DNA from: a phage
DNA: 64,000 nt
Sequence record: PZ445450.1
Direction: 5' to 3' (one strand)
Under the pieces are notes generated by a model that made no database searches, was not told the origin of the DNA, and was given only the letters and a program-made list of their open reading frames with translations. The first letter of the stretch is position 1. Each line of letters opens with the position of its first letter. This document shows positions 8,467 through 59,837 of the stretch, piece after piece. The position numbers and the translations under genes are program-made.

Positions 8467-11400
8467 ATGCTTCCAATCCCTTTGCTAAAACTTGGTCGTC
8501 ATTTCCTCGATAAGAGAGGTGGAATTAAGGAACTTGCTGTTCTGTCATACCCAATAGACAACAGTGATGGTACAAGCAACACAGTATCCTATGTAAATAG
8601 CTTAGCTATACTTTTTGATGATGGTCAACTTAATATCACGGGCTATAACAGGTTCGGAGAGTGCCGCACTGGGGATCTTGACACGATAAACTATCCCAAC
8701 GAGGCTGCCTGGAACGTTGATCATGTGTGGAGAGCAGACCGTGCGTTTGTGATCCGAACTTTTGATAACCAGTTTTTCTACATCGGCTGCACTGCAGGGC
8801 TTATTGGGTCTGATGCTGCAGGCGGTAATGATGTTTGTGTAAGAGAGTGGACACCTCTTCCTGAACAGATCGTTAAAGGATTGCACCTTGACACCCACCC
8901 AGAGCGCCTTATTGAGGTGATGGGTGGTATTAACAACACTGTCTGGGTTATTGCAGAGGCAGAAGGCACTGGCATACTTAACCTGTATGGGTCTGGTAAC
9001 AACACCTACGGATCTTTGCATGTAGATAAAAATCAGCATGCAACCCCTGTAAAGATTGGTGAGACATCGGAAAATCCTGAAACAGGCCCTTGGAAAAACC
9101 CAAGCATCAACTGCGAGGTGCATGACAACTCTGTTATTTTCGGTGGTCCTAGGGGTTTCTGGATTGCTGGATACGACTTTCTGAGAAATAACAGTAGAAA
9201 CGACCTTGTTTGGCCTCCTGTGCAGATCACTCGTAACGATTTGAGGGGCATTCCTGCAGATGAGGAGTGGAAAGGGTTTATGTGTGGTCCTAACGGGGCA
9301 ATAATTGCCACACAGAGGATGCATAGACCCGATGACCAGCAGCTTGTTAACGTATTCTACGGGCAAGACGTTTGGGGAGATGACACATGGCGTTCCTTAA
9401 ATATCACCTACACCCATGAGGTAATAATGGCTCGTGGGTACGGCACAAGTGGCATTTTCTTCAATAATGGCACTAAGCAGTATCGTGGATTCTCTCGCAA
9501 CTTGTGTAATGATATTGGCGCACAATCTGCAAACAATAGCCCTAGGGCCAATTTTATCCACTATCAAGCTCTTGCTACAGCTAAATATGTTGAGCAACGC
9601 CTGCCAGTTAGCTGGACAGAGAGTGTTTATTTCCAAGGCATCCACAGGGAAGGTTTCTTAGGAACCTTTACTGTTGTTAATGGTAAACTTTGGTGGTCAG
9701 GCATCCCAAGGGGGAGTTTTGCAGGCTCTAACAACCTGTTTGGCGGCAGACTTAATAGTCAGGGGTTCACAGAGGTTCCTGAGAATTGGTATAAAAATGT
9801 CCCAGTAGACAGTTGGGGTGTTGATGATATTTTCGACGTTAACGGTGTTAGCAGCGTTAGCAATATTTACATTGGTGACACGGTCAAGATGAAATTGAAG
9901 CCTCAGCCAGAAGGGGCTACGTTCATTATTGACAAGATTGAACTGGTAAATGCTGCAGGCACGGTTGTTACAGATGCAAATTACCAATTCTCCACCAACT
10001 GGAACCACGGCGGGGCCAATGAAGTTGTTGTTACCCAGTATAACAGAAATGTTAACAGACGTGGCCTGTACTCTGTAAAAATAACTTATCATGACAAGCA
10101 TGGCACAGGCAGAACCCATACGACAAGGACTTTGAACTGGAACACCATAGTTCCTGCGTATCCGTCTAACGGCAAGTGGCATACCGTTGGTAGAAACAAG
10201 CAGTTCCATGTTAACGATACTGTATACTTTGGGCTGAATGGTACTCAGCCTGCAGTAGAAGGTGATACATCATATATGGTCCGACTCCACAGAATGGATG
10301 CTGGATCAGTCACTTACGATGTTACCCAAGAGATTTATGATCAGAGAAGAAATACCTACAACAACTTGGTGCAGACACAGGCCGTATGGGAGTTCAACCC
10401 TAACGGCAGAGGTGGTAAAATGTTGCAGGTTAACGAGCAAAACGGAACGTCGTTAACTGTCCACGAACACCCAGACCCTTGGCCTGATCCTGGAAAACCT
10501 CACCCAGGCGCTCGTACGCTGAAAATTGTCAGCCATGATGTAGGATATTTCGGAATACGCTGGGAAGCTACAGTAAGGTATGCCGACGGGACAACAAACA
10601 ACATAGGGATTACACTTGGTGGCACCAGTGAAGATAACTCGCTGAAAATTGCCTACACTCCTAGAGGTATATCTATTGACAATATGGATGTTGTTCGCAA
10701 TGGTTACGGCGATGTGAATGTCAAAGTTACTCTTGGCGAACATCTTGGTGGGGAAAGGATCATCATGTATGCTTTTGATCATGACCCGCGTACCAACGGA
10801 ACTTATGCAAATCAGGCATGGAGTTACCTGATAAATGCACCTGGGCCGAATACTAAAGAGTTCTACTACGGCATGAAGCGAGATGTGTGCAAGAAAACAG
10901 GAACACATGACTGGATTGCTATCTGCGTTAAAGATGAGCGCACAGCTTGGGATGAGCCTGTTAACAGATGGTTCATAGGTATTCCTACCAGAAGTGATAA
11001 GTATGTCGCAGAATATATTGTATGCATGGGCGGTACCAACCTGAACATGTGTTGGAACGAGGATGCAAACAAATACTCTGATTATGACTATATGAGGGAC
11101 TACTCTTGTAATCAGTGGTTTAACCAATCAACAGGATACCCTCCACGTCAGGCGAGAGTAAACCCTGCAATCTTCACAGATACGCAGGTTTTCTTGACAA
11201 AACAGGCCAACGAGGTTCAGACCTTCAAGAATAAATACGATCCTAACAAGTGGTTCTACAACTGTTACGGCGCATTTTTCTGGGGACCTGGTGAGTTACC
11301 TGGTGGAGGATCTTGCTTGAATGAGGCAACTTACGCCAGTGACTACATCATGGGGCAGGTCAAGAAGTATAAGATAATCCCCGGTCCTGAGACTCTGGGC

Positions 11401-45364: not shown

Positions 45365-45693
45365 CAGAGATCATCGTTTCAACTGCAGGGTATGTATTCC
45401 TGACAATCATTGCGTTGGCTATTCTGGTGGCGGTGTATGGATTTGTTATCCTGCCTATTCTTGAGACATTTAGTTTGTGTCGGTGTTGGAGAAAAGCTTA
45501 CGGACCACAACCGTGGAAAGACTGGTTCCATTTGGTGCGTATAGCGTTCTCTTATGCCTATGACCACTCTAGCAGTGCATGCGTAACCGGGTACCATGCC
45601 TACAACTGGAACTGGGAAGGGCTGGGGAGATGGACTGTTACAAAAACTATACCCTTACGGTTGTATAAAGGAAAGAACAAACTGGGCACCTGA
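45361..45693 (+). CDS. Small membrane protein
   Basis: Hydrophobic N-terminal helices GYVFLTIIALAILVAVYGFVILPIL. Confidence 0.45.
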   Translation: MTEIIVSTAGYVFLTIIALAILVAVYGFVILPILETFSLCRCWRKAYGPQPWKDWFHLVRIAFSYAYDHSSSACVTGYHAYNWNWEGLGRWTVTKTIPLRLYKGKNKLGT

Positions 45694-46005
45694 TATTTTT
45701 AAGTTATCAGGTTGCTAGAGATCAGGAGGATTTCTAAAATGGATTTCCTCCTTTTGATATTTCACCGGACCAGATATTTTAAAATTCTTAGAAAATCAGA
45801 AAATGGATCGAAAACTAAAATGGATTTTTCAGAGTAGGCGCGACAAGCTGAATCGCTCATCCTATCGTTTGCACCATATTCTAGACCACCATTACAGATT
45901 TCCCGCACATGCTCACATCCTTCTACTAGAACTTCCTCCACTTACCCTTGACTTTTTATGGTAATAGTCTAACCACTATCTTGAGGTTGCGGTACAGCTT
46001 TCCGG

Positions 46006-46170
46006 GTACTCGATCTGTTTTTCGTTTCAAAGATTGAATTTTCTGAAAATTTTTCTCGATAAATTTCTCAGTACTCGATCTGTTTTTCGTTTTCTGAATC
46101 GGATTTTCTGGAAATCGTTCCGGAGCTCGACCTGAAATTTTTGGGGACGAAATCGATTTTTCGTTTTCAG
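46006..46170. repeat. Imperfect direct repeats with about 65-bp period
   Basis: GTACTCGATCTGTTTTTCGTTT at 46006 and 46071, related CGATTTTTCGTTTTC at 46154; AAATGGATTTTT motif recurs in the region. Confidence 0.6.
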
Positions 46171-46242
46171 AAATGGATTTTTAAAATTTCTATATGGGAA
46201 TATTTTATAGGATACTGTTTTATAGGAAATTGTTACGGAGGG

Positions 46243-46260
46243 TAATTAGCATGCTAATTA
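46243..46260. repeat. Perfect 18-bp palindrome
   Basis: TAATTAGCATGCTAATTA; operator-like. Confidence 0.6.
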
Positions 46261-46330
46261 AATTTATTAAATGCGAGGAGTTCTCATTTAGAATTTTGAA
46301 TGATAATCATTCTCGTTTGCAGAATAACGG

Positions 46331-46370
46331 GCAGGCCCGGTGATTGTCTCCCGGCCCCTGTTGCCCCGGC
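46331..46370 (+). repeat. GC-rich element, copy 1
   Basis: Core CCGGTGATTGTCTCCC within GGGCAGGCCCGG..CCGGCCCCTG. Confidence 0.55.
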
Positions 46371-46464
46371 TTGTTATTATAGTATCACACAGGACAAAGA
46401 AAGCAAGGACTTTTTGCATAAATTTTTAAATGATAATGATAACCGTTCTCATTTTATGCAGCGC

Positions 46465-46505
46465 CCATCCCCGGTGGTTGTCTCCCCCGTCACCGGTGCC
46501 TGCCG
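46465..46505 (+). repeat. GC-rich element, copy 2
   Basis: Core CCGGTGGTTGTCTCCC followed by CACCGGTGCCTGCC; reverse complement matches copy at 55694. Confidence 0.55.
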
Positions 46506-46675
46506 TCCTTTCGATAGGTATATTGTGCCACCTGGCGGGGCCGCTGTCAACACTTTTCAAAAAATTTTTCTAACCTGATGCGCTAACCGTTGCAACCTGG
46601 CGGGGCCAGCCTGGCAGGGGGGTGAAAGCTTGCAAACCTGGTAGTAGGGTAAACAATTGAAGAGGAGGTACAAAA

Positions 46676-46849
46676 ATGAAAGGTAATGCTACTCACCTGG
46701 AGAATGTAGCGATTAATGACGCTGAGGCTATCGCCCTGGTTGAAAAGGCTATGGCGGGAGCGTTGGAACATAAAGAAGAGTACGAAAAAATGGTGGTTAA
46801 CCTAGCGGGGGCGGCAGGTGGATTCTATCATAAAAATAATTTAAAATAG
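46676..46849 (+). CDS. Small early protein (57 aa, not in ORF track)
   Basis: ATG after GAGGAGG; hand-translated to TAG 46847-46849. Confidence 0.4.
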   Translation: MKGNATHLENVAINDAEAIALVEKAMAGALEHKEEYEKMVVNLAGAAGGFYHKNNLK

Positions 46850-55636: not shown

Positions 55637-55650
55637 TCTTTATAAACCAT

Positions 55651-55684
55651 AAAACAGGGCTTGTAATGGTCCTGTTTTTTGTTA
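55651..55684 (+). terminator. Rho-independent terminator
   Basis: Stem AAAACAGG/CCTGTTTT with wobble-extended inner pairs, T-run TTTTTTGTT. Confidence 0.65.
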
Positions 55685-55693
55685 TACTTATTT

Positions 55694-55745
55694 CACGGCA
55701 GGCACCTGGCGACGGGGGGAGACAATCACCGGGGGTGCCTGTCAT
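55694..55745 (-). repeat. GC-rich element, copy 3 (inverted)
   Basis: GGCAGGCACC..GACGGGGGGAGACAATCACCGGGGGTGCCTGTC is the near reverse complement of copy 2. Confidence 0.55.
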
Positions 55746-55765
55746 ATAAAAAACTATAAAAACCG

Positions 55766-55794
55766 TTGACACCTGCCAGGCGGTGGGGTAACAT
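55766..55794 (+). promoter_or_regulatory. Sigma70-like promoter
   Basis: TTGACA-N17-TAACAT. Confidence 0.45.
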
Positions 55795-55848
55795 TTATCT
55801 TGAAGGGGCAAAAGTGCTCACACAACAACCAGAAGAGAGGAAAACGCC

Positions 55849-57286: not shown

Positions 57287-57304
57287 TTTCTTAACTGAAT
57301 TATC

Positions 57305-57334
57305 AAGGGGCTTAAAGGCCCCTTTCTTTTTGTC
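57305..57334 (+). terminator. Rho-independent terminator closing the early cluster
   Basis: Stem AAGGGGC/GCCCCTT then TCTTTTTGTC. Confidence 0.75.
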
Positions 57335-58046
57335 TGCTCTTCTCCTACCATAAACGGCCCTACCTGGCAAGTGGAATAATTGACTAGCCATCAATCCCAC
57401 ATACTGTACAAATATACATGGAAAATAACTATTGCATAATCTTTCATTGTGCGGTAGCAGGGCCATTTTTACCCGTTTTCTCTCCCAAAAGTGCACGTAA
57501 TGCCGCTATTGCACAAATTTTAACCTGATGCACATATCCAATATCTTGTCAACAACTAAAAATCTTTATAAGTCATACACTTATACAGCATCGAAAGCGT
57601 GTTCTACGTGAAAAATCGAGTATAACTATAGCCGCCAGATCTCAGAATTCACGTACGCACGCCATTCTATAGCCTGCAAAGTATTTATTCCAACCACAGA
57701 ATAACGGAATAGTCAATACCTGCATAAAATAATTATTCGTGTAAACTGCATAACATAAATCAGCTCAGGTGTCAACATTTTTCGTAAACAGTCCGAAATT
57801 ATCACGATGAGTTATCATAAACAGAGAAATCTTTAGTCGTCTAATGTTTACTGTACATTACTATACTGACTGGAATCATTAGATGACTAAGAAAAAGATA
57901 AGAAATAATTAATAATGTAATTGTTTTATCTGTAACAATAAGGCAACCATGCAAACGAATGTCATGGCGCGACGGAGTCGCGACATAATATAAAAGCAGT
58001 AACCATCACCCCCGTGATAGTTTGTCTGCAATCTATTATTCAGATC

Positions 58047-58118
58047 ATAGTTGCCTTGTATTTAGTTAATCATGACATAACAAGCAAGGCAACTATAGCT
58101 CTGATAATAGTTGCCCTG
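58047..58118. repeat. 12-bp inverted repeat pair plus a direct copy
   Basis: ATAGTTGCCTTG (58047) / CAAGGCAACTAT (58085) with 26-bp spacer; direct variant ATAGTTGCCCTG at 58107. Confidence 0.6.
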
Positions 58119-58247
58119 CTTTTATATTATGTCATAGATTGTTAGCTTGTTAACTGTCAGCCTGTTGGCTGTTAGCTTGTCAATTATTAAATTGCTAATC
58201 TTTATCATGCAAACGAATGTCATGGCTTATCATCTCTGTGTAAACAG

Positions 58248-58302
58248 TTTGGGCGTAAACTATTCAGGCGTAAACAGTCTATGCGTAAACAGTGAGATAT
58301 GG
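58248..58302 (+). repeat. Four tandem 15-bp repeats (iteron-like)
   Basis: Units start 58248, 58263, 58278, 58293, each G(T/C)GTAAAC(A/T)..; dispersed GTAAACAG copies also near 57783, 58587, 59347. Confidence 0.65.
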
Positions 58303-59837
58303 AATAGTAACAGCCGTTATTGTGTCATATTGTGTGACATTGTGTCCGGTGTCTGGTGTCCAGTGTGTCAGACAAGTTTTTCTCCTCTTTGTCAAGTGCT
58401 GCATGAAAAATTTACAAACTGGTATGGTAGCATTTTTGCGGCCCTGTTTACATTCAGTTGTGTATGTATAACCCTTGTTGTGTGGGCGTTTAGACGTCTA
58501 GACGGTTGGAAGTCTGCAGGTCAATATCTAATCTATCGGCTGCTAACTATATCCCACACAAATAGTAAGAAATATAATTGTTATGTGCGTAAACAGTAAC
58601 TCATGTTATCAATCCCTGTATGTATCGCCAGTGGTGCGCATAATGGGTATTATGTTAAATTGCCCGTAATGATAATGGTTCTCACAATGATAGGTATTCT
58701 CATTCATCCACACAAAATAGGTTGCAAATGTTGTGCCACTGTGTGAACGGCCTGGCCTATTAATTTCCCTCACTGCCTCGATATTTGAGAATTGTTATAA
58801 GAATGAGAAGTATTCCCATTTCGTCCGCCTGGCAGCACTCCTGTAGTCCTACAAGGACTCTAGCTGAAAGCTAGACCCTTCGGGCCTCCCTGCAGGTCAG
58901 GTCAAAATCGTGGTAGAATTGGGCTTATTCAGATATTTCTGGCCGACTCTTCAGGTCTGTGTGGGAAAAGCCAACCTCTCCGGCGGGGCAGGGGGAGGTC
59001 AATTAAAAAATTTACGTGGTGTATGAAGCGCTCTTCAGGTAAGGCAGGTATTATGGGATGAAACCCTCTTCAGGCAATGATATTTGTGGGTGTGATATTT
59101 GCTGGAAAGCCAGATATGACGGGACTCCCGGCGGGGATGGGGCAGTACAGACAGGGAAAATATGGGGATGTAGTTGGGTAAATTGATCAGACAGGTAGAG
59201 TATGGAATATGTTACAAGTATGTTAAATATGGAGGGTGAATATCTGTAGGATTTGTGTGTAAAATCAAAGACTTAAGCGGTGTTGTGGTATTTTCTATAA
59301 ATAATTCAAGTTTAATAGGTAATATTTGTCTCTATCCACTCTGTGTGGTAAACAGATTCAGATGATATTGGTTTGCAAGTGTATACATAATATACAAATT
59401 AAAGATACAAGAAACCCCCCTCCCCCTTCGGCTACCATTCACCTTTTCCTCTGACTGGTACTTAAACACTTATTCAGACTCTTCAGGTTATCACCCATAT
59501 ATCATATGGCAGTGACTGGTGTCCTCCGGCCCCTCTTTCGTCACCCGTCCGCTTCGCCATGCTAATGCCATAGCCAAATGTTCGGTTGTTCACCCTGTTC
59601 ACTCAGGTGTATCTCCATACCCCTTCAAACCGAAGAGAACAGAAAACCCGAATTACTCGGTAAAAGAAAAGAGAAGAACTTAATTTTATCATGATAGGCA
59701 AGAATGTCAAGGCATGACTGCTCACTAAACAAGCAAACAGTCATGTGTGGAAGGTAAGTGATTGTGGTGGTAGGAAATTTAGTTGAAAGATGTGTTATAG
59801 GTGCTCCCAGCACTTTAGCCGGGTAGCTAATTGTGTG

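What the first reader, a model, noticed from the sequence alone, without database searches (positions are those of the whole stretch)
45694..46675. Second gene-free regulatory region with 65-bp-period repeats and an 18-bp perfect palindrome
Between the replication module and the early cluster: GTACTCGATCTGTTTTTCGTTT twice 65 bp apart, recurrent AAATGGATTTTT, and palindrome TAATTAGCATGCTAATTA. Combined direct repeats and a palindrome resemble an origin or operator complex.
Basis: seen in the sequence. Interest (0 to 1): 0.55.

Follow-up and report, generated by a model that had tools for sequence, protein, structure and literature searches.

The report
Conserved phage control region with Fur boxes
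This gene-free kilobase of an rV5-like E. coli phage is a deeply conserved cis-acting control region, made of a triple AT-rich repeat array beside binding sites for the host iron sensor Fur and leftward promoters, and it may be an iron-linked replication origin or transcription switch that nobody has described.

Summary
The two exact 22-mers lie 65 bp apart, the AAATGGATTTTT copies cluster here, and the 18-bp palindrome sits at 46243-46260. All lie in a non-coding gap of an rV5-like phage (Vequintavirus), between the replication genes and the early-gene cluster.

1. The 22-mers belong to three tandem ~57-nt units. Their number and spacing recur in four other Vequintavirinae-like lineages.
2. 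To the right lie three Fur-box-like 19-mers. They match the consensus better than E. coli's own ent/fep operators do. One shares a 16-mer with the fhuA promoter.
3. Two or three tandem leftward sigma70-type promoters, syntenic across genera, point through the Fur boxes into the AT-rich array. Each is followed by a conserved GAGACAAnCACCG box.

Positions 46005-46560 are more conserved than the flanking genes. The ORFs annotated here in relatives are not real. No DnaA or IHF sites and no GC-skew turn were found.

Best reading, at moderate confidence: a Fur-gated, transcription-activated origin-type element. The rivals are a pure transcriptional insulator or iron switch, Fur decoy sites, and an sRNA locus. 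The palindrome alone is not statistically special. The Fur connection appears undescribed for virulent coliphages.

The parts
45724..45755 (+). Hairpin AGGAGGA-N15-TCCTCCT followed by a T-run. Probable terminator of the upstream 110-aa gene. Its loop holds the first AAATGGATTT copy.
   Evidence: Read. A G-C to A-T compensatory change in L131/L132 and a G-U wobble in L001 keep the stem.
45692..45779 (+). Three GATATTT repeats at 45692, 45756 and 45773.
   Evidence: Two to three copies sit at the same relative position in PVP-SE1, GAP31, KpS8, L027, L114 and ukendt.
45730..45835 (+). Conserved block of short GAAAT(G/C)GATTT-type direct repeats, including AAATGGATTT at 45737 and 45818.
   Evidence: family D2. 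Mean pairwise identity is 0.906, against 0.80 for the upstream CDS.
45836..46004 (.). Fast-evolving spacer.
   Evidence: Mean pairwise identity 0.70, with 27% invariant columns.
45999..46194 (+). Three tandem ~57-nt iteron-like units (45999-46055, 46064-46120, 46138-46194). Each has (G)TACTCGATC-NN-TTTTTCG, then a GGATTTTC-type motif, then an AAAATTTTT A/T-tract junction. The exact 22-mers lie at 46006 and 46071.
   Evidence: The same three-unit architecture, with spacing 74-76 then 67-69 bp, occurs in L004, L005, L007 and L027. Identity within Vequintavirus is 0.918.
46172..46272 (.). Most easily melted DNA of the locus (77% A+T). It includes a 15-bp tandem repeat (46203-46234) and the palindrome.
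   Evidence: Second least stable 100-bp window of the 64 kb.
46243..46260 (.). 18-bp perfect palindrome TAATTAGCATGCTAATTA.
   Evidence: Not significant alone. Variants in relatives are a central A>G and an arm T>C. The T>C change would be a G-U pair only in a leftward RNA.
46270..46288 (.). Fur box 0, degenerate: AATGCGAGGAGTTCTCATT.
   Evidence: Four mismatches to AATGAKAATNATTMTCATT. It aligns with a full Fur box in GAP31 and KpS8.
46299..46317 (.). Fur box 1: AATGATAATCATTCTCGTT.
   Evidence: One mismatch to the consensus. It shares the 16-mer ATAATCATTCTCGTTT with the E. coli K-12 fhuA promoter. It is invariant in 13 Vequintavirus sequences and is the core of the only segment that blastn finds in other genera.
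46296..46325 (+). Candidate rightward promoter TTGAAT-N18-CAGAAT bracketing Fur box 1. Weak.
   Evidence: Read. The spacing matches the Certrevirus early-promoter consensus TGTTGAC(N19)TATAAT (PMC7344957). However, the critical -11 A is not conserved across genera.
46338..46350 (-). GC box 1: CGGTGATTGTCTC on the + strand, which is GAGACAATCACCG in a leftward RNA.
   Evidence: Conserved across genera.
46379..46406 (-). Leftward promoter P(-)1: TTGCTT-N16-TACTAT, or N19-TATAAT.
   Evidence: Found by eye in the window. Syntenic tool-detected sites are PVP-SE1 2113>2086 (TTGATC-N16-TATTAT) and KpS8 2146>2118 (TTGCAA-N17-TATATT). The hexamers are conserved while the spacers differ.
46429..46453 (.). 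Fur box 2, in two overlapping registers: AATGATAATGATAACCGTT and AATGATAACCGTTCTCATT.
   Evidence: Three and two mismatches. It matches the E. coli 19-mer GATAATGATAATCATTATC at 16 of 19 positions.
46472..46484 (-). GC box 2: CGGTGGTTGTCTC.
   Evidence: (family D6).
46522..46550 (-). Leftward promoter P(-)2: TTGACA-N17-CACAAT with an upstream TG.
   Evidence: 10 of 12 matches. Syntenic strong sites are ukendt 2316>2288 (11 of 12), PVP-SE1 2273>2245 and KpS8 2306>2278.
46561..46675 (.). Variable, indel-rich tail. It holds the second copy of TGC(C/A)ACCTGGCGGGGCC (46591), 65 bp from the first (46526).
   Evidence: family D7. Identity 0.57.

Best explanation
The region is one conserved, non-coding, multipartite cis-acting locus. 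It is shared by Vequintavirus, Seunavirus, Mydovirus, an Erwinia-phage lineage and, in looser form, Phapecoctavirus.

**Shown by the sequence**
1. The left half is an AT-rich array: GATATTT repeats, short GAAATGGATTT-type repeats, then exactly three ~57-67-nt tandem units ending in A/T-tract junctions. It runs into the most meltable DNA of the locus.
2. The middle holds one to four 19-bp boxes that match the Fur operator consensus.
3. The right half holds two or three tandem sigma70-type promoters. All point leftward, against the surrounding genes. Each is followed by a G+C-rich leader with the box GAGACAAnCACCG. No ORF lies downstream of them.

**Inferred mechanism**
Host RNA polymerase starts at the leftward promoters. 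It transcribes the G+C-rich leader, passes the Fur boxes and enters the AT-rich repeat array. There the transcript, or the act of transcription, opens the duplex for the phage's T7-like replisome (gp4-type primase-helicase plus PolA). This would be an origin activated by transcription, as at the T7 primary origin or T4 oriF/oriG. The three units would be binding sites for a phage protein not yet identified. Fe2+-Fur bound at the boxes would act as a roadblock or gate, coupling this event to the host's iron status.

**My sub-confidences**
- Boxes bind Fur: about 0.75.
- Leftward promoters are active: about 0.7.
- The locus is an origin: about 0.35.
For: - **Non-coding and constrained.** Positions 46263-46560 have 0.947 mean pairwise identity, against 0.80 and 0.45 for the flanking CDSs. 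ORF198 is broken in 2 of 13 sequences.
- **Three-unit array.** It keeps its number and spacing in four other lineages while the sequence diverges. The upstream repeat classes are also conserved. The unit motifs are essentially confined to this locus within the 64 kb.
- **Fur boxes, enrichment.** There are 7 matches within 3 mismatches in the window, against 0.14 expected.
- **Fur boxes, quality.** The phage boxes score 1-3 mismatches. The bona fide fepA-fes, fepD-entS and fepB-entC operators of E. coli K-12 score 3-4, and fhuA scores 3. Box 1 shares a 16-mer with the fhuA promoter.
- **Fur boxes, consensus.** The consensus equals the published Xanthomonas Fur box AATGAgAATcATTctCATT (PMC1790865) and the E. 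faecalis Fur sites (PMC6056675).
- **Fur boxes, spread.** The 20-mer hits at least 120 viral contigs, against 3 for a composition-matched control palindrome.
- **Leftward promoters.** They are syntenic across genera.
- **Meltability.** The least stable DNA of the locus lies at 46172-46272, rank 2 of the window.
- **Replisome context.** T7-type replisome genes lie immediately upstream.
- **Open question.** The origin of rV5 is unknown; skew analysis failed to find it (PMC3606486).
Against: - No DnaA box, IHF site or GATC cluster.
- No GC-skew inflection at 46 kb.
- No recognisable initiator among neighbouring ORFs.
- The 57.3-59.5 kb non-coding region also has repeats, Fur boxes and the single least stable DNA. 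It could be the origin instead.
- P(-)1 in the window is weak by consensus: 7 of 12 with N16, or 9 of 12 with a long N19 spacer.
- Fur repression of replication in iron-replete cells has no obvious selective logic.
- There is no experimental data of any kind on transcripts, binding or initiation.
Confidence: 0.35

Rival explanations
1. A transcriptional boundary and iron switch, with no role in replication. The locus insulates the rightward replication (middle) operon from the rightward early cluster. The AT-rich hairpin-plus-T-run units act as tandem weak terminators. The convergent leftward promoters cause transcriptional interference. Fur sets the balance, including a Fur-repressed rightward promoter (TTGAAT-N18-CAGAAT) feeding the early genes when iron is low.
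For: - The position lies between two same-direction gene modules.
- The + strand has a hairpin plus T-run at 45724-45755 with a compensatory change and a terminator-like site at 46137-46174.
- Each unit in Seunavirus has ATTTTTTC-N8-GAAAAAAT followed by Ts.
- Fur box 1 sits exactly between a -35-like and a -10-like hexamer, with the spacing of the family's early promoters (PMC7344957).
- The convergent leftward promoters are conserved.
Against: - Terminators and insulators do not need near-invariant sequence over 550 bp, nor exactly three units with fixed spacing across genera.
- The stems are almost pure A-T.
- The -11 A of the rightward -10 is not conserved across genera.
Confidence: 0.28
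2. Fur decoy sites. The boxes do not regulate phage transcription. As the genome is amplified, the roughly six boxes per genome titrate host Fur. That would derepress iron uptake and RyhB, and free iron for phage needs. The neighbouring repeats would serve some unrelated function.
For: - The boxes cluster in the two non-coding regions, 46.3-46.5 kb and 58.67-58.82 kb.
- They match the consensus better than host operators do.
- There are arrays of up to four boxes at 29-bp spacing in phage ukendt.
- The same box occurs in unrelated phages, including the T5-like terminal repeat.
- Multicopy Fur boxes are known to derepress the regulon, which is the principle of the FURTA assay (my own knowledge).
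Against: The fixed position of the boxes relative to the promoters and the GC box in every genus argues for a position-dependent role. Nothing is known about iron demand of this phage.
Confidence: 0.12
3. A locus of small non-coding RNAs. These would be the leftward leaders carrying the GAGACAAnCACCG seed (two copies here, a third at 55690-55745), or a Fur-repressed rightward sRNA analogous to RyhB or the tandem PrrF1/PrrF2. They would act by base-pairing on host or phage mRNAs.
For: - There are three paralogous promoter-proximal GC boxes.
- Single-sequence folds place the box in a hairpin, with z of -3.7, -2.5 and -1.3.
- In Seunavirus, Mydovirus and Phapecoctavirus a + strand terminator-like hairpin (CGCCGTGGGGTGGCG plus a T-rich tail) lies about 200 nt downstream of the Fur-box promoter.
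- The tandem Fur-box modules recall prrF1/prrF2.
Against: - No Rfam match.
- RNAalifold finds no conserved structure or covariation on either strand.
- No intrinsic terminator follows either candidate RNA in the window.
- An sRNA would not explain the conserved repeat array.
Confidence: 0.12
4. A packaging (pac) recognition site or physical genome end. The repeat array would be bound by the small terminase subunit.
For: pac sites of SPP1 and P1 are repeat-rich and bent (my own knowledge). Two GenBank assemblies of relatives begin or end inside 46510-46620 (H49, H58).
Against: - No terminase gene is nearby; the neighbours are replication and early genes.
- Two of 121 records starting here is what random assembly breaks would give.
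- The breaks coincide with the 65-bp CCTGGCGGGGCC duplication.
Confidence: 0.04
5. The region is protein-coding, as annotated in rV5 (ORF199, ORF198) and several relatives.
For: ORFs of 32-92 aa exist. They are annotated in some records.
Against: - Annotation differs between records, and several records annotate nothing here.
- The 92-aa ORF is frameshifted in Alma and has two stops in L002. Nearly all its substitutions change the amino acid, and its ATG lies inside Fur box 1.
- The ORFs over the repeats in Seunavirus and Mydovirus align only as low-complexity translations with large indels.
Confidence: 0.02

Closest known systems
Fur operators of Enterobacteria (fhuA, fepA-fes, fepB-entC; 19-bp 9-1-9 or 7-1-7 Fur box)
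   Same: The palindromic consensus is the same. Box 1 shares 16 consecutive bases with the fhuA operator region. The boxes occur in arrays, as in iron-uptake promoters.
   Different: They lie in a virulent phage genome, not upstream of any iron gene. They sit downstream of leftward promoters that have no ORF. Binding has not been tested.
T7 primary origin (tandem promoters phi1.1A/B followed by an AT-rich region) and T4 oriF/oriG (promoter plus downstream unwinding element, R-loop primer)
   Same: Tandem same-direction promoters aim into the most meltable AT-rich DNA. The phage has a T7-type primase-helicase and PolA.
   Different: - The promoters are host sigma70-type.
- The transcripts are antisense to the neighbouring genes.
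- A triple iteron-like array and Fur boxes are interposed.
- There is no functional evidence.
Iteron-type origins (lambda ori, T4 oriE, P1 and plasmid iterons)
   Same: Direct repeats in one orientation lie next to an AT-rich stretch. Across genera the repeat sequence diverges while the architecture is kept.
   Different: The units are long (57-67 nt rather than 12-22 bp) and only three in number. No initiator gene encloses or adjoins them. There are no DnaA or IHF sites.
Host nutrient-sensor sites in lytic phage genomes (PhoB boxes and NtcA sites in cyanophages; the Fur-regulated stx1 promoter of Shiga-toxin prophages). Named from my own knowledge.
   Same: A phage borrows a host nutrient-responsive transcription factor.
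   Different: Those sites control identifiable auxiliary or toxin genes. Here no regulated gene is evident, and the sensor is iron in a virulent coliphage.
Tandem Fur-regulated sRNA genes prrF1/prrF2 of Pseudomonas and ryhB. Named from my own knowledge.
   Same: There are two tandem paralogous modules, 134-136 bp apart, each with a Fur box.
   Different: No terminator, no conserved fold and no sequence similarity were found.

Membership tests
Fur box (Fur operator) | 19-bp 9-1-9 inverted repeat matching the Fur consensus | tested here: met
   Box 1 has 1 mismatch and box 2 has 2-3 mismatches to AATGAKAATNATTMTCATT. The window has 7 hits against 0.14 expected. The consensus is identical to published Fur boxes.
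Fur box (Fur operator) | Scores as well as experimentally established operators of the host | tested here: met
   The same scan finds the E. coli K-12 fepA-fes, fepD-entS and fepB-entC intergenic operators at 3-4 mismatches and fhuA at 3. Box 1 shares a 16-mer with the fhuA promoter.
Fur box (Fur operator) | Overlaps or closely follows a promoter that it can repress | tested here: inconclusive
   Box 1 lies between a weak -35-like and -10-like pair on the + strand. It is also about 50-70 nt downstream of the leftward P(-)1 start. Box 2 lies just upstream of P(-)1 and downstream of P(-)2. No transcription start data exist.
Fur box (Fur operator) | Bound by Fe2+-Fur, with iron- and fur-dependent expression | not testable with these tools
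   This needs EMSA or footprinting, FURTA, ChIP, or RNA-seq in a delta-fur host.
Replication origin, iteron or DnaA type | Array of direct repeats adjacent to an easily melted AT-rich element | tested here: met
   Three units lie at 45999-46194. Positions 46172-46272 are the second least stable 100 bp of 64 kb.
Replication origin, iteron or DnaA type | DnaA boxes, IHF sites or a GATC cluster | tested here: not met
   One DnaA-like hit with a mismatch, no IHF site, and GATC density 0.8 times the window average.
Replication origin, iteron or DnaA type | Initiator gene in or beside the origin | tested here: not met
   Pfam finds nothing initiator-like in ten ORFs between 37.7 and 44.9 kb. PHROGs names only helicases, a primase-helicase and a polymerase further upstream.
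Replication origin, iteron or DnaA type | Strand-composition (GC skew) inflection | tested here: not met
   Cumulative skew rises monotonically from 21 to 57 kb. The rV5 authors also found only transcription-linked switches.
Transcription-activated origin (T7 primary origin / T4 oriF-oriG type) | Promoter(s) directed into a downstream unwinding element | tested here: met
   This rests on sequence prediction only. P(-)2 is at 46550>46522 and P(-)1 at 46406>46379. Both point at the AT-rich array, and they are syntenic in other genera.
Transcription-activated origin (T7 primary origin / T4 oriF-oriG type) | RNA-DNA transition, R-loop, or initiation mapped at the site | not testable with these tools
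   This needs nascent-strand or marker-frequency mapping.
Small regulatory RNA | Promoter plus intrinsic terminator delimiting a short transcript | tested here: not met
   The window has no terminator-like site after either candidate. A + strand terminator-like hairpin exists only in other genera.
Small regulatory RNA | Conserved secondary structure with covariation, or a known family | tested here: not met
   RNAalifold finds 3-4 pairs and negligible covariation on either strand. Rfam finds nothing beyond chance.
Protein-coding gene | ORF intact and under purifying selection in relatives | tested here: not met
   A frameshift and stop codons occur in 2 of 13 sequences. Substitutions are almost all non-synonymous. 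The ORFs in other genera are low-complexity translations.

The most novel reading that the evidence does not exclude
Virulent enterobacterial phages of two subfamilies share a roughly 1-kb non-coding organ. In it, operators for the host iron sensor Fur gate non-coding leftward transcription into an iteron and unwinding array. That would be an iron-sensing replication origin or a replication-coupled Fur sponge. The same Fur box recurs after early promoters and in the T5-type terminal repeat of unrelated phages. If so, wiring into host iron status would be a widespread and so far unrecognised phage strategy.
Probability: 0.2. Interest if true: 0.8.

Novelty: new variant of a known kind. Interest (0 to 1): 0.6.

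Why it matters
The replication origin and early control circuitry of rV5-like phages are unknown, although these phages are widely used in biocontrol and therapy cocktails. This locus gives a precise, testable candidate.

If Fur really binds here, infection by these phages would be coupled to iron availability. Many unrelated phages carry the same box, so the same could hold for them. Iron is scarce in the gut and in infected tissue, so this would bear on phage-therapy efficacy. It would also add iron to the short list of host nutrient signals (phosphate, nitrogen) known to be read directly by lytic phages.

Separately, the result corrects the annotation of two or three spurious ORFs that have been propagated through many GenBank records.

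Tried and rejected
- **Rfam.** The whole window at gathering thresholds gave nothing. The locus at E-value up to 1 gave only chance snoRNA and thermometer hits.
- **RNA structure.** RNAalifold on a multi-genus alignment of the module found no conserved structure on the + strand or the - strand including paralogues. Single-sequence folds of the + strand were not better than shuffles.
- **Similarity to E. coli.** blastn of the Fur-box modules against E. coli genomes found no match. The resemblance to fhuA is too short for BLAST and was found by fetching the locus directly.
- **Host origin motifs.** DnaA, IHF, Fis and GATC scans were negative. The oriC 13-mer resemblance of GATCTGTTTTTCG (11 of 13) is weak, with 42 such hits in the window.
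- **Initiator gene.** Pfam on upstream ORFs found no initiator.
- **Coding reading.** The ORFs here were rejected as coding.
- **The palindrome as a special signal.** Rejected statistically.
- **Literature.** I found no paper on this region, on an origin in Vequintavirinae, or on Fur boxes in virulent phages. The rV5 and CB7 genome papers do not mention it.
- **Recalled motifs.** From memory, TCGATAAATT at 46056-46065 resembles the H-NS high-affinity motif, and CTGAATCGGATT resembles a Cra box. Neither was tested, so I make no claim for them.
Full report
**Identity and context**

The window is an rV5-like myophage (genus Vequintavirus). The 1.8 kb around the finding matches 121 phage records at 80-97% identity. 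PHROGs places RIIA/RIIB, a Dda-like helicase, a DNA methyltransferase, a gp4-type primase-helicase and a family-A DNA polymerase at 25.8-37.7 kb, all on the + strand. Small + strand ORFs follow from 46.7 kb; the first has its own sigma70-like promoter, and the annotation of relatives predicts promoters before most of the others.

**Checking the observation**

- The 22-mer occurs exactly twice, at 46006 and 46071. No shuffle gave a match.
- The palindrome is at 46243-46260.
- AAATGGATTTTT-like sequences occur four times between 45737 and 46182, all on the + strand.
- Window-wide that motif is not enriched, so the signal is its clustering.
- The palindrome is the only perfect palindrome of 16 bp or more in 64 kb. 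However, a quarter of composition-matched shuffles also contain an 18-bp palindrome. Its significance rests on conservation alone.

**The region is non-coding**

GenBank records annotate anywhere from no ORF to several ORFs here, with no agreement between them. The longest ORF (46300-46578, rV5 ORF198) starts inside a Fur box. It is frameshifted in phage Alma and carries two stop codons in L002. Almost all of its substitutions change the amino acid. ORFs drawn over the equivalent repeats in Seunavirus and Mydovirus align only as low-complexity strings with large indels.

**Conservation profile**

I aligned 13 Vequintavirus sequences and measured mean pairwise identity per segment.

| Segment | Coordinates | Mean pairwise identity |
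|---|---|---|
| Upstream CDS | 45601-45693 | 0.80 |
| Short-repeat block | 45730-45835 | 0.91 |
| Spacer | 45836-46004 | 0.70 |
| Three units | 46005-46200 | 0.92 |
| Fur and promoter modules | 46263-46560 | 0.95 (85% invariant columns) |
| Tail | 46561-46675 | 0.57 |
| Downstream small ORF | 46676-46760 | 0.45 |

About 550 bp of non-coding DNA is thus under stronger constraint than its neighbouring genes.

**The 65-bp repeat is a conserved triple array**

The two 22-mers are the cores of three tandem 57-nt units at 45999, 46064 and 46138, with spacing 65 and 74 bp. The same architecture of exactly three units appears in four other phages.

| Phage (locus) | Spacing between units (bp) |
|---|---|
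| Salmonella phage PVP-SE1 (L004) | 75, 67 |
| Cronobacter phage GAP31 (L005) | 76, 67 |
| Klebsiella phage KpS8 (L007) | 74, 67 |
| Erwinia-phage-like contig (L027) | 76, 69 |

In those four phages each unit reads roughly G(T/G)(A/T)CTCGATC-NN-TTTTTC(G/A), then AAAATCG or AAATGGA, then TATTTTTTCT-N8-GAAAAAATTTTT. The sequence drifts from genus to genus while the layout is kept.

To the left, every genus also has two or three GATATTT repeats and a run of GAAAT(G/C)G(A/T)TTT repeats. Phapecoctavirus ukendt has a different AT-rich repeat set in the same place. Within the 64-kb window the unit motifs are essentially confined to this locus. They are therefore not a general promoter motif.

**Fur boxes**

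A distant blastn of the region finds only one segment outside Vequintavirus, about 46258-46407. It hits Seunavirus, Mydovirus, Certrevirus, Phapecoctavirus and Erwinia phages, always inside a 0.7-1.3 kb gene-poor gap. Its core is AATGATAATCATTCTCGTT.

This is the 9-1-9 Fur box. It matches the published Xanthomonas Fur consensus AATGAgAATcATTctCATT (PMC1790865), and its core matches the E. faecalis Fur sites TGAGAATGATTCTCA (PMC6056675). It contains the 7-1-7 motif TGATAATnATTATCA with two mismatches.

The window has three boxes in this locus:
- box 0 at 46270, degenerate;
- box 1 at 46299;
- box 2 at 46429-46453.

A second cluster lies at 58668, 58686 and 58802. In total there are 7 matches within 3 mismatches, against 0.14 expected.

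I calibrated the scan on E. coli K-12. Across the 18.5 kb ent/fep locus, the matches within 4 mismatches fall in the three classical Fur-controlled intergenic regions: fepA-fes, fepD-entS and fepB-entC. These score 3-4 mismatches, and there is one match inside a coding sequence. The fhuA operator scores 3 mismatches. The phage boxes score 1-3. Box 1 shares the 16-mer ATAATCATTCTCGTTT with the fhuA promoter.

Other genera carry one to four boxes. Phage ukendt has four at 29-bp spacing.

A composition-matched control palindrome is found in 3. The contigs include unrelated phages. In many of them the box directly follows a TTGACA-N17-TAAAAT-CGGCGCC promoter. In T5-like phages it lies in the terminal repeat. 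A site shared by unrelated phages and by host operators points to a host factor rather than a phage repressor.

**Leftward promoters and GC boxes**

To the right of the boxes, sigma70-type promoters point leftward, against all surrounding genes.

| Phage | Leftward promoter sites | Source |
|---|---|---|
| Window | 46550>46522 (TTGACA-N17-CACAAT with an upstream TG) | |
| Window | 46406>46379 (TTGCTT-N16-TACTAT, or N19-TATAAT) | by eye |
| PVP-SE1 | 1987>1958, 2113>2086, 2273>2245 | |
| KpS8 | 1989>1961, 2146>2118, 2306>2278 | |
| ukendt | 2316>2288 (11 of 12 matches) | |

Across genera the hexamers are conserved while the spacers differ. This is the expected signature of real promoters.

Each promoter is followed within 15-45 nt by the box GAGACAAnCACCG (46338-46350 and 46472-46484 on the - strand). 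A third paralogue lies on the + strand at 55690-55745, after a TTGTAA-N16-TATACT promoter. Single sequences fold into hairpins that present this box, with z-scores from -1.3 to -3.7. RNAalifold finds no conserved structure on either strand, and Rfam finds nothing.

No conserved ORF lies downstream of these promoters. Box 1 is also bracketed by a weak rightward pair, TTGAAT-N18-CAGAAT. Its spacing fits the family's early-promoter consensus (PMC7344957), but its -11 A is not conserved.

**Origin-type tests**

In favour:
- the repeat array;
- the second least stable 100 bp of the window at 46172;
- promoters aimed at that stretch;
- a T7-type replisome encoded next door.

Against:
- no DnaA or IHF sites and no GATC cluster;
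- no skew inflection;
- no initiator found.

The 57.3-59.5 kb non-coding region has more repeats, its own Fur boxes and the single least stable DNA. The rV5 genome paper looked for the origin by skew analysis and found only transcription-linked switches. It does not discuss this locus (PMC3606486).

**Interpretation**

*Shown.* This is a conserved multipartite cis-acting locus whose recognisable parts are Fur-type operators, leftward sigma70-type promoters and an iteron-like AT-rich triple array.

*Inferred.* Leftward non-coding transcription runs through the Fur boxes into the array. The most economical function is transcriptional activation of a replication origin, of the T7 or T4 oriF/oriG kind, gated by Fe-Fur.

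I give this composite reading 0.35. The rivals are:
- a purely transcriptional boundary and iron switch (0.28);
- Fur decoy sites (0.12);
- an sRNA locus (0.12);
- a pac site (0.04);
- coding sequence (0.02).

There is an operator complex, though it is not the palindrome. The origin idea survives but is untested.

**Novelty**

Searches of the paper library found no description of this locus, of an origin in Vequintavirinae, or of Fur boxes in virulent phages. Host nutrient-sensor sites in lytic phages are a known kind, for example PhoB and NtcA sites in cyanophages (my own knowledge). So are transcription-activated origins. I therefore rate this a new variant of a known kind.

Noticed in passing
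window 57290-59500: A larger ORF-poor region of more than 2 kb. It corresponds to the 'non-coding' box and a skew switch in the rV5 paper. It has many short direct repeats: GCGTAAACAG about five times, TGTTAGCTTG twice, a duplicated ATGCAAACGAATGTCATGGC, and GATATTT four times. It also has three Fur-box-like 19-mers at 58668, 58686 and 58802, and the least stable DNA of the whole window (57842-57942). It is at least as good an origin candidate as the region under study.
   Followed up: partly
window 55640-55800: A third paralogue of the GC box, on the + strand. The order is terminator hairpin, promoter TTGTAA-N16-TATACT, a 47-nt hairpin GGCAGGCACC...GAGACAATCACC...GGTGCCTGTC (z = -3.7), an A-rich stretch, then the next promoter. 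This suggests the GC box is a promoter-proximal leader element used elsewhere in the early region.
   Followed up: partly
IMG/VR loci L008-L127 (e.g. L023, L048, L050, L090, L096): The exact Fur-box 20-mer occurs in at least 120 viral contigs of very different phages, against 3 for a control palindrome. It is often placed right after a conserved TTGACA-N17-TAAAAT-CGGCGCC promoter, and sometimes occurs in tandem (L084 has three copies at 30-bp spacing).
   Followed up: partly
L013 2950-3400; phage chee24 (MF431730) 8943-9393: T5-like phages carry the same Fur box, followed by a GC hairpin, inside the annotated left terminal repeat at about 9 kb. From memory, that is near the end of the first-step-transfer DNA. 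T5's receptor FhuA is itself Fur-regulated.
   Followed up: no
window 46676-46849: The first ORF after the locus (57 aa) is unstable in relatives. It is deleted in phiWec191 (L135), has ATA in place of ATG in B9-1 (L130), and has indels that are not multiples of three in others. It is probably dispensable or a pseudogene. A 13-nt deletion in the window also removes the TTGCAA-N17-TATAGG promoter seen upstream of it in relatives.
   Followed up: partly
L004 2294-2476, L005 2317-2508, L007 2327-2518; L006 about 2310-2585: Seunavirus and Mydovirus have a small conserved leftward gene (PVP-SE1 gp201, 60 aa) with its own promoter to the right of the promoter modules. Phage ukendt has an unannotated leftward ORF of about 90 aa in the same place. 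The rV5-like window lacks it. Those genera also share a conserved segment absent from the window: CTTTACAAAT twice, then CTACCGGCGATCCACCTTCC, ending in a + strand terminator-like hairpin CGCCGTGGGGTGGCG.
   Followed up: partly
GenBank records MG0656xx: Sixteen records named 'Campylobacter phage', with host given as C. jejuni, are 92-97% identical to this rV5-like coliphage region. They carry no annotation. The host labels are probably wrong or result from contamination.
   Followed up: no
window 46056-46065: TCGATAAATT inside unit 1 matches what I recall as the H-NS high-affinity nucleation motif. This is from memory only. I did not test it against a matrix or against background.
   Followed up: no
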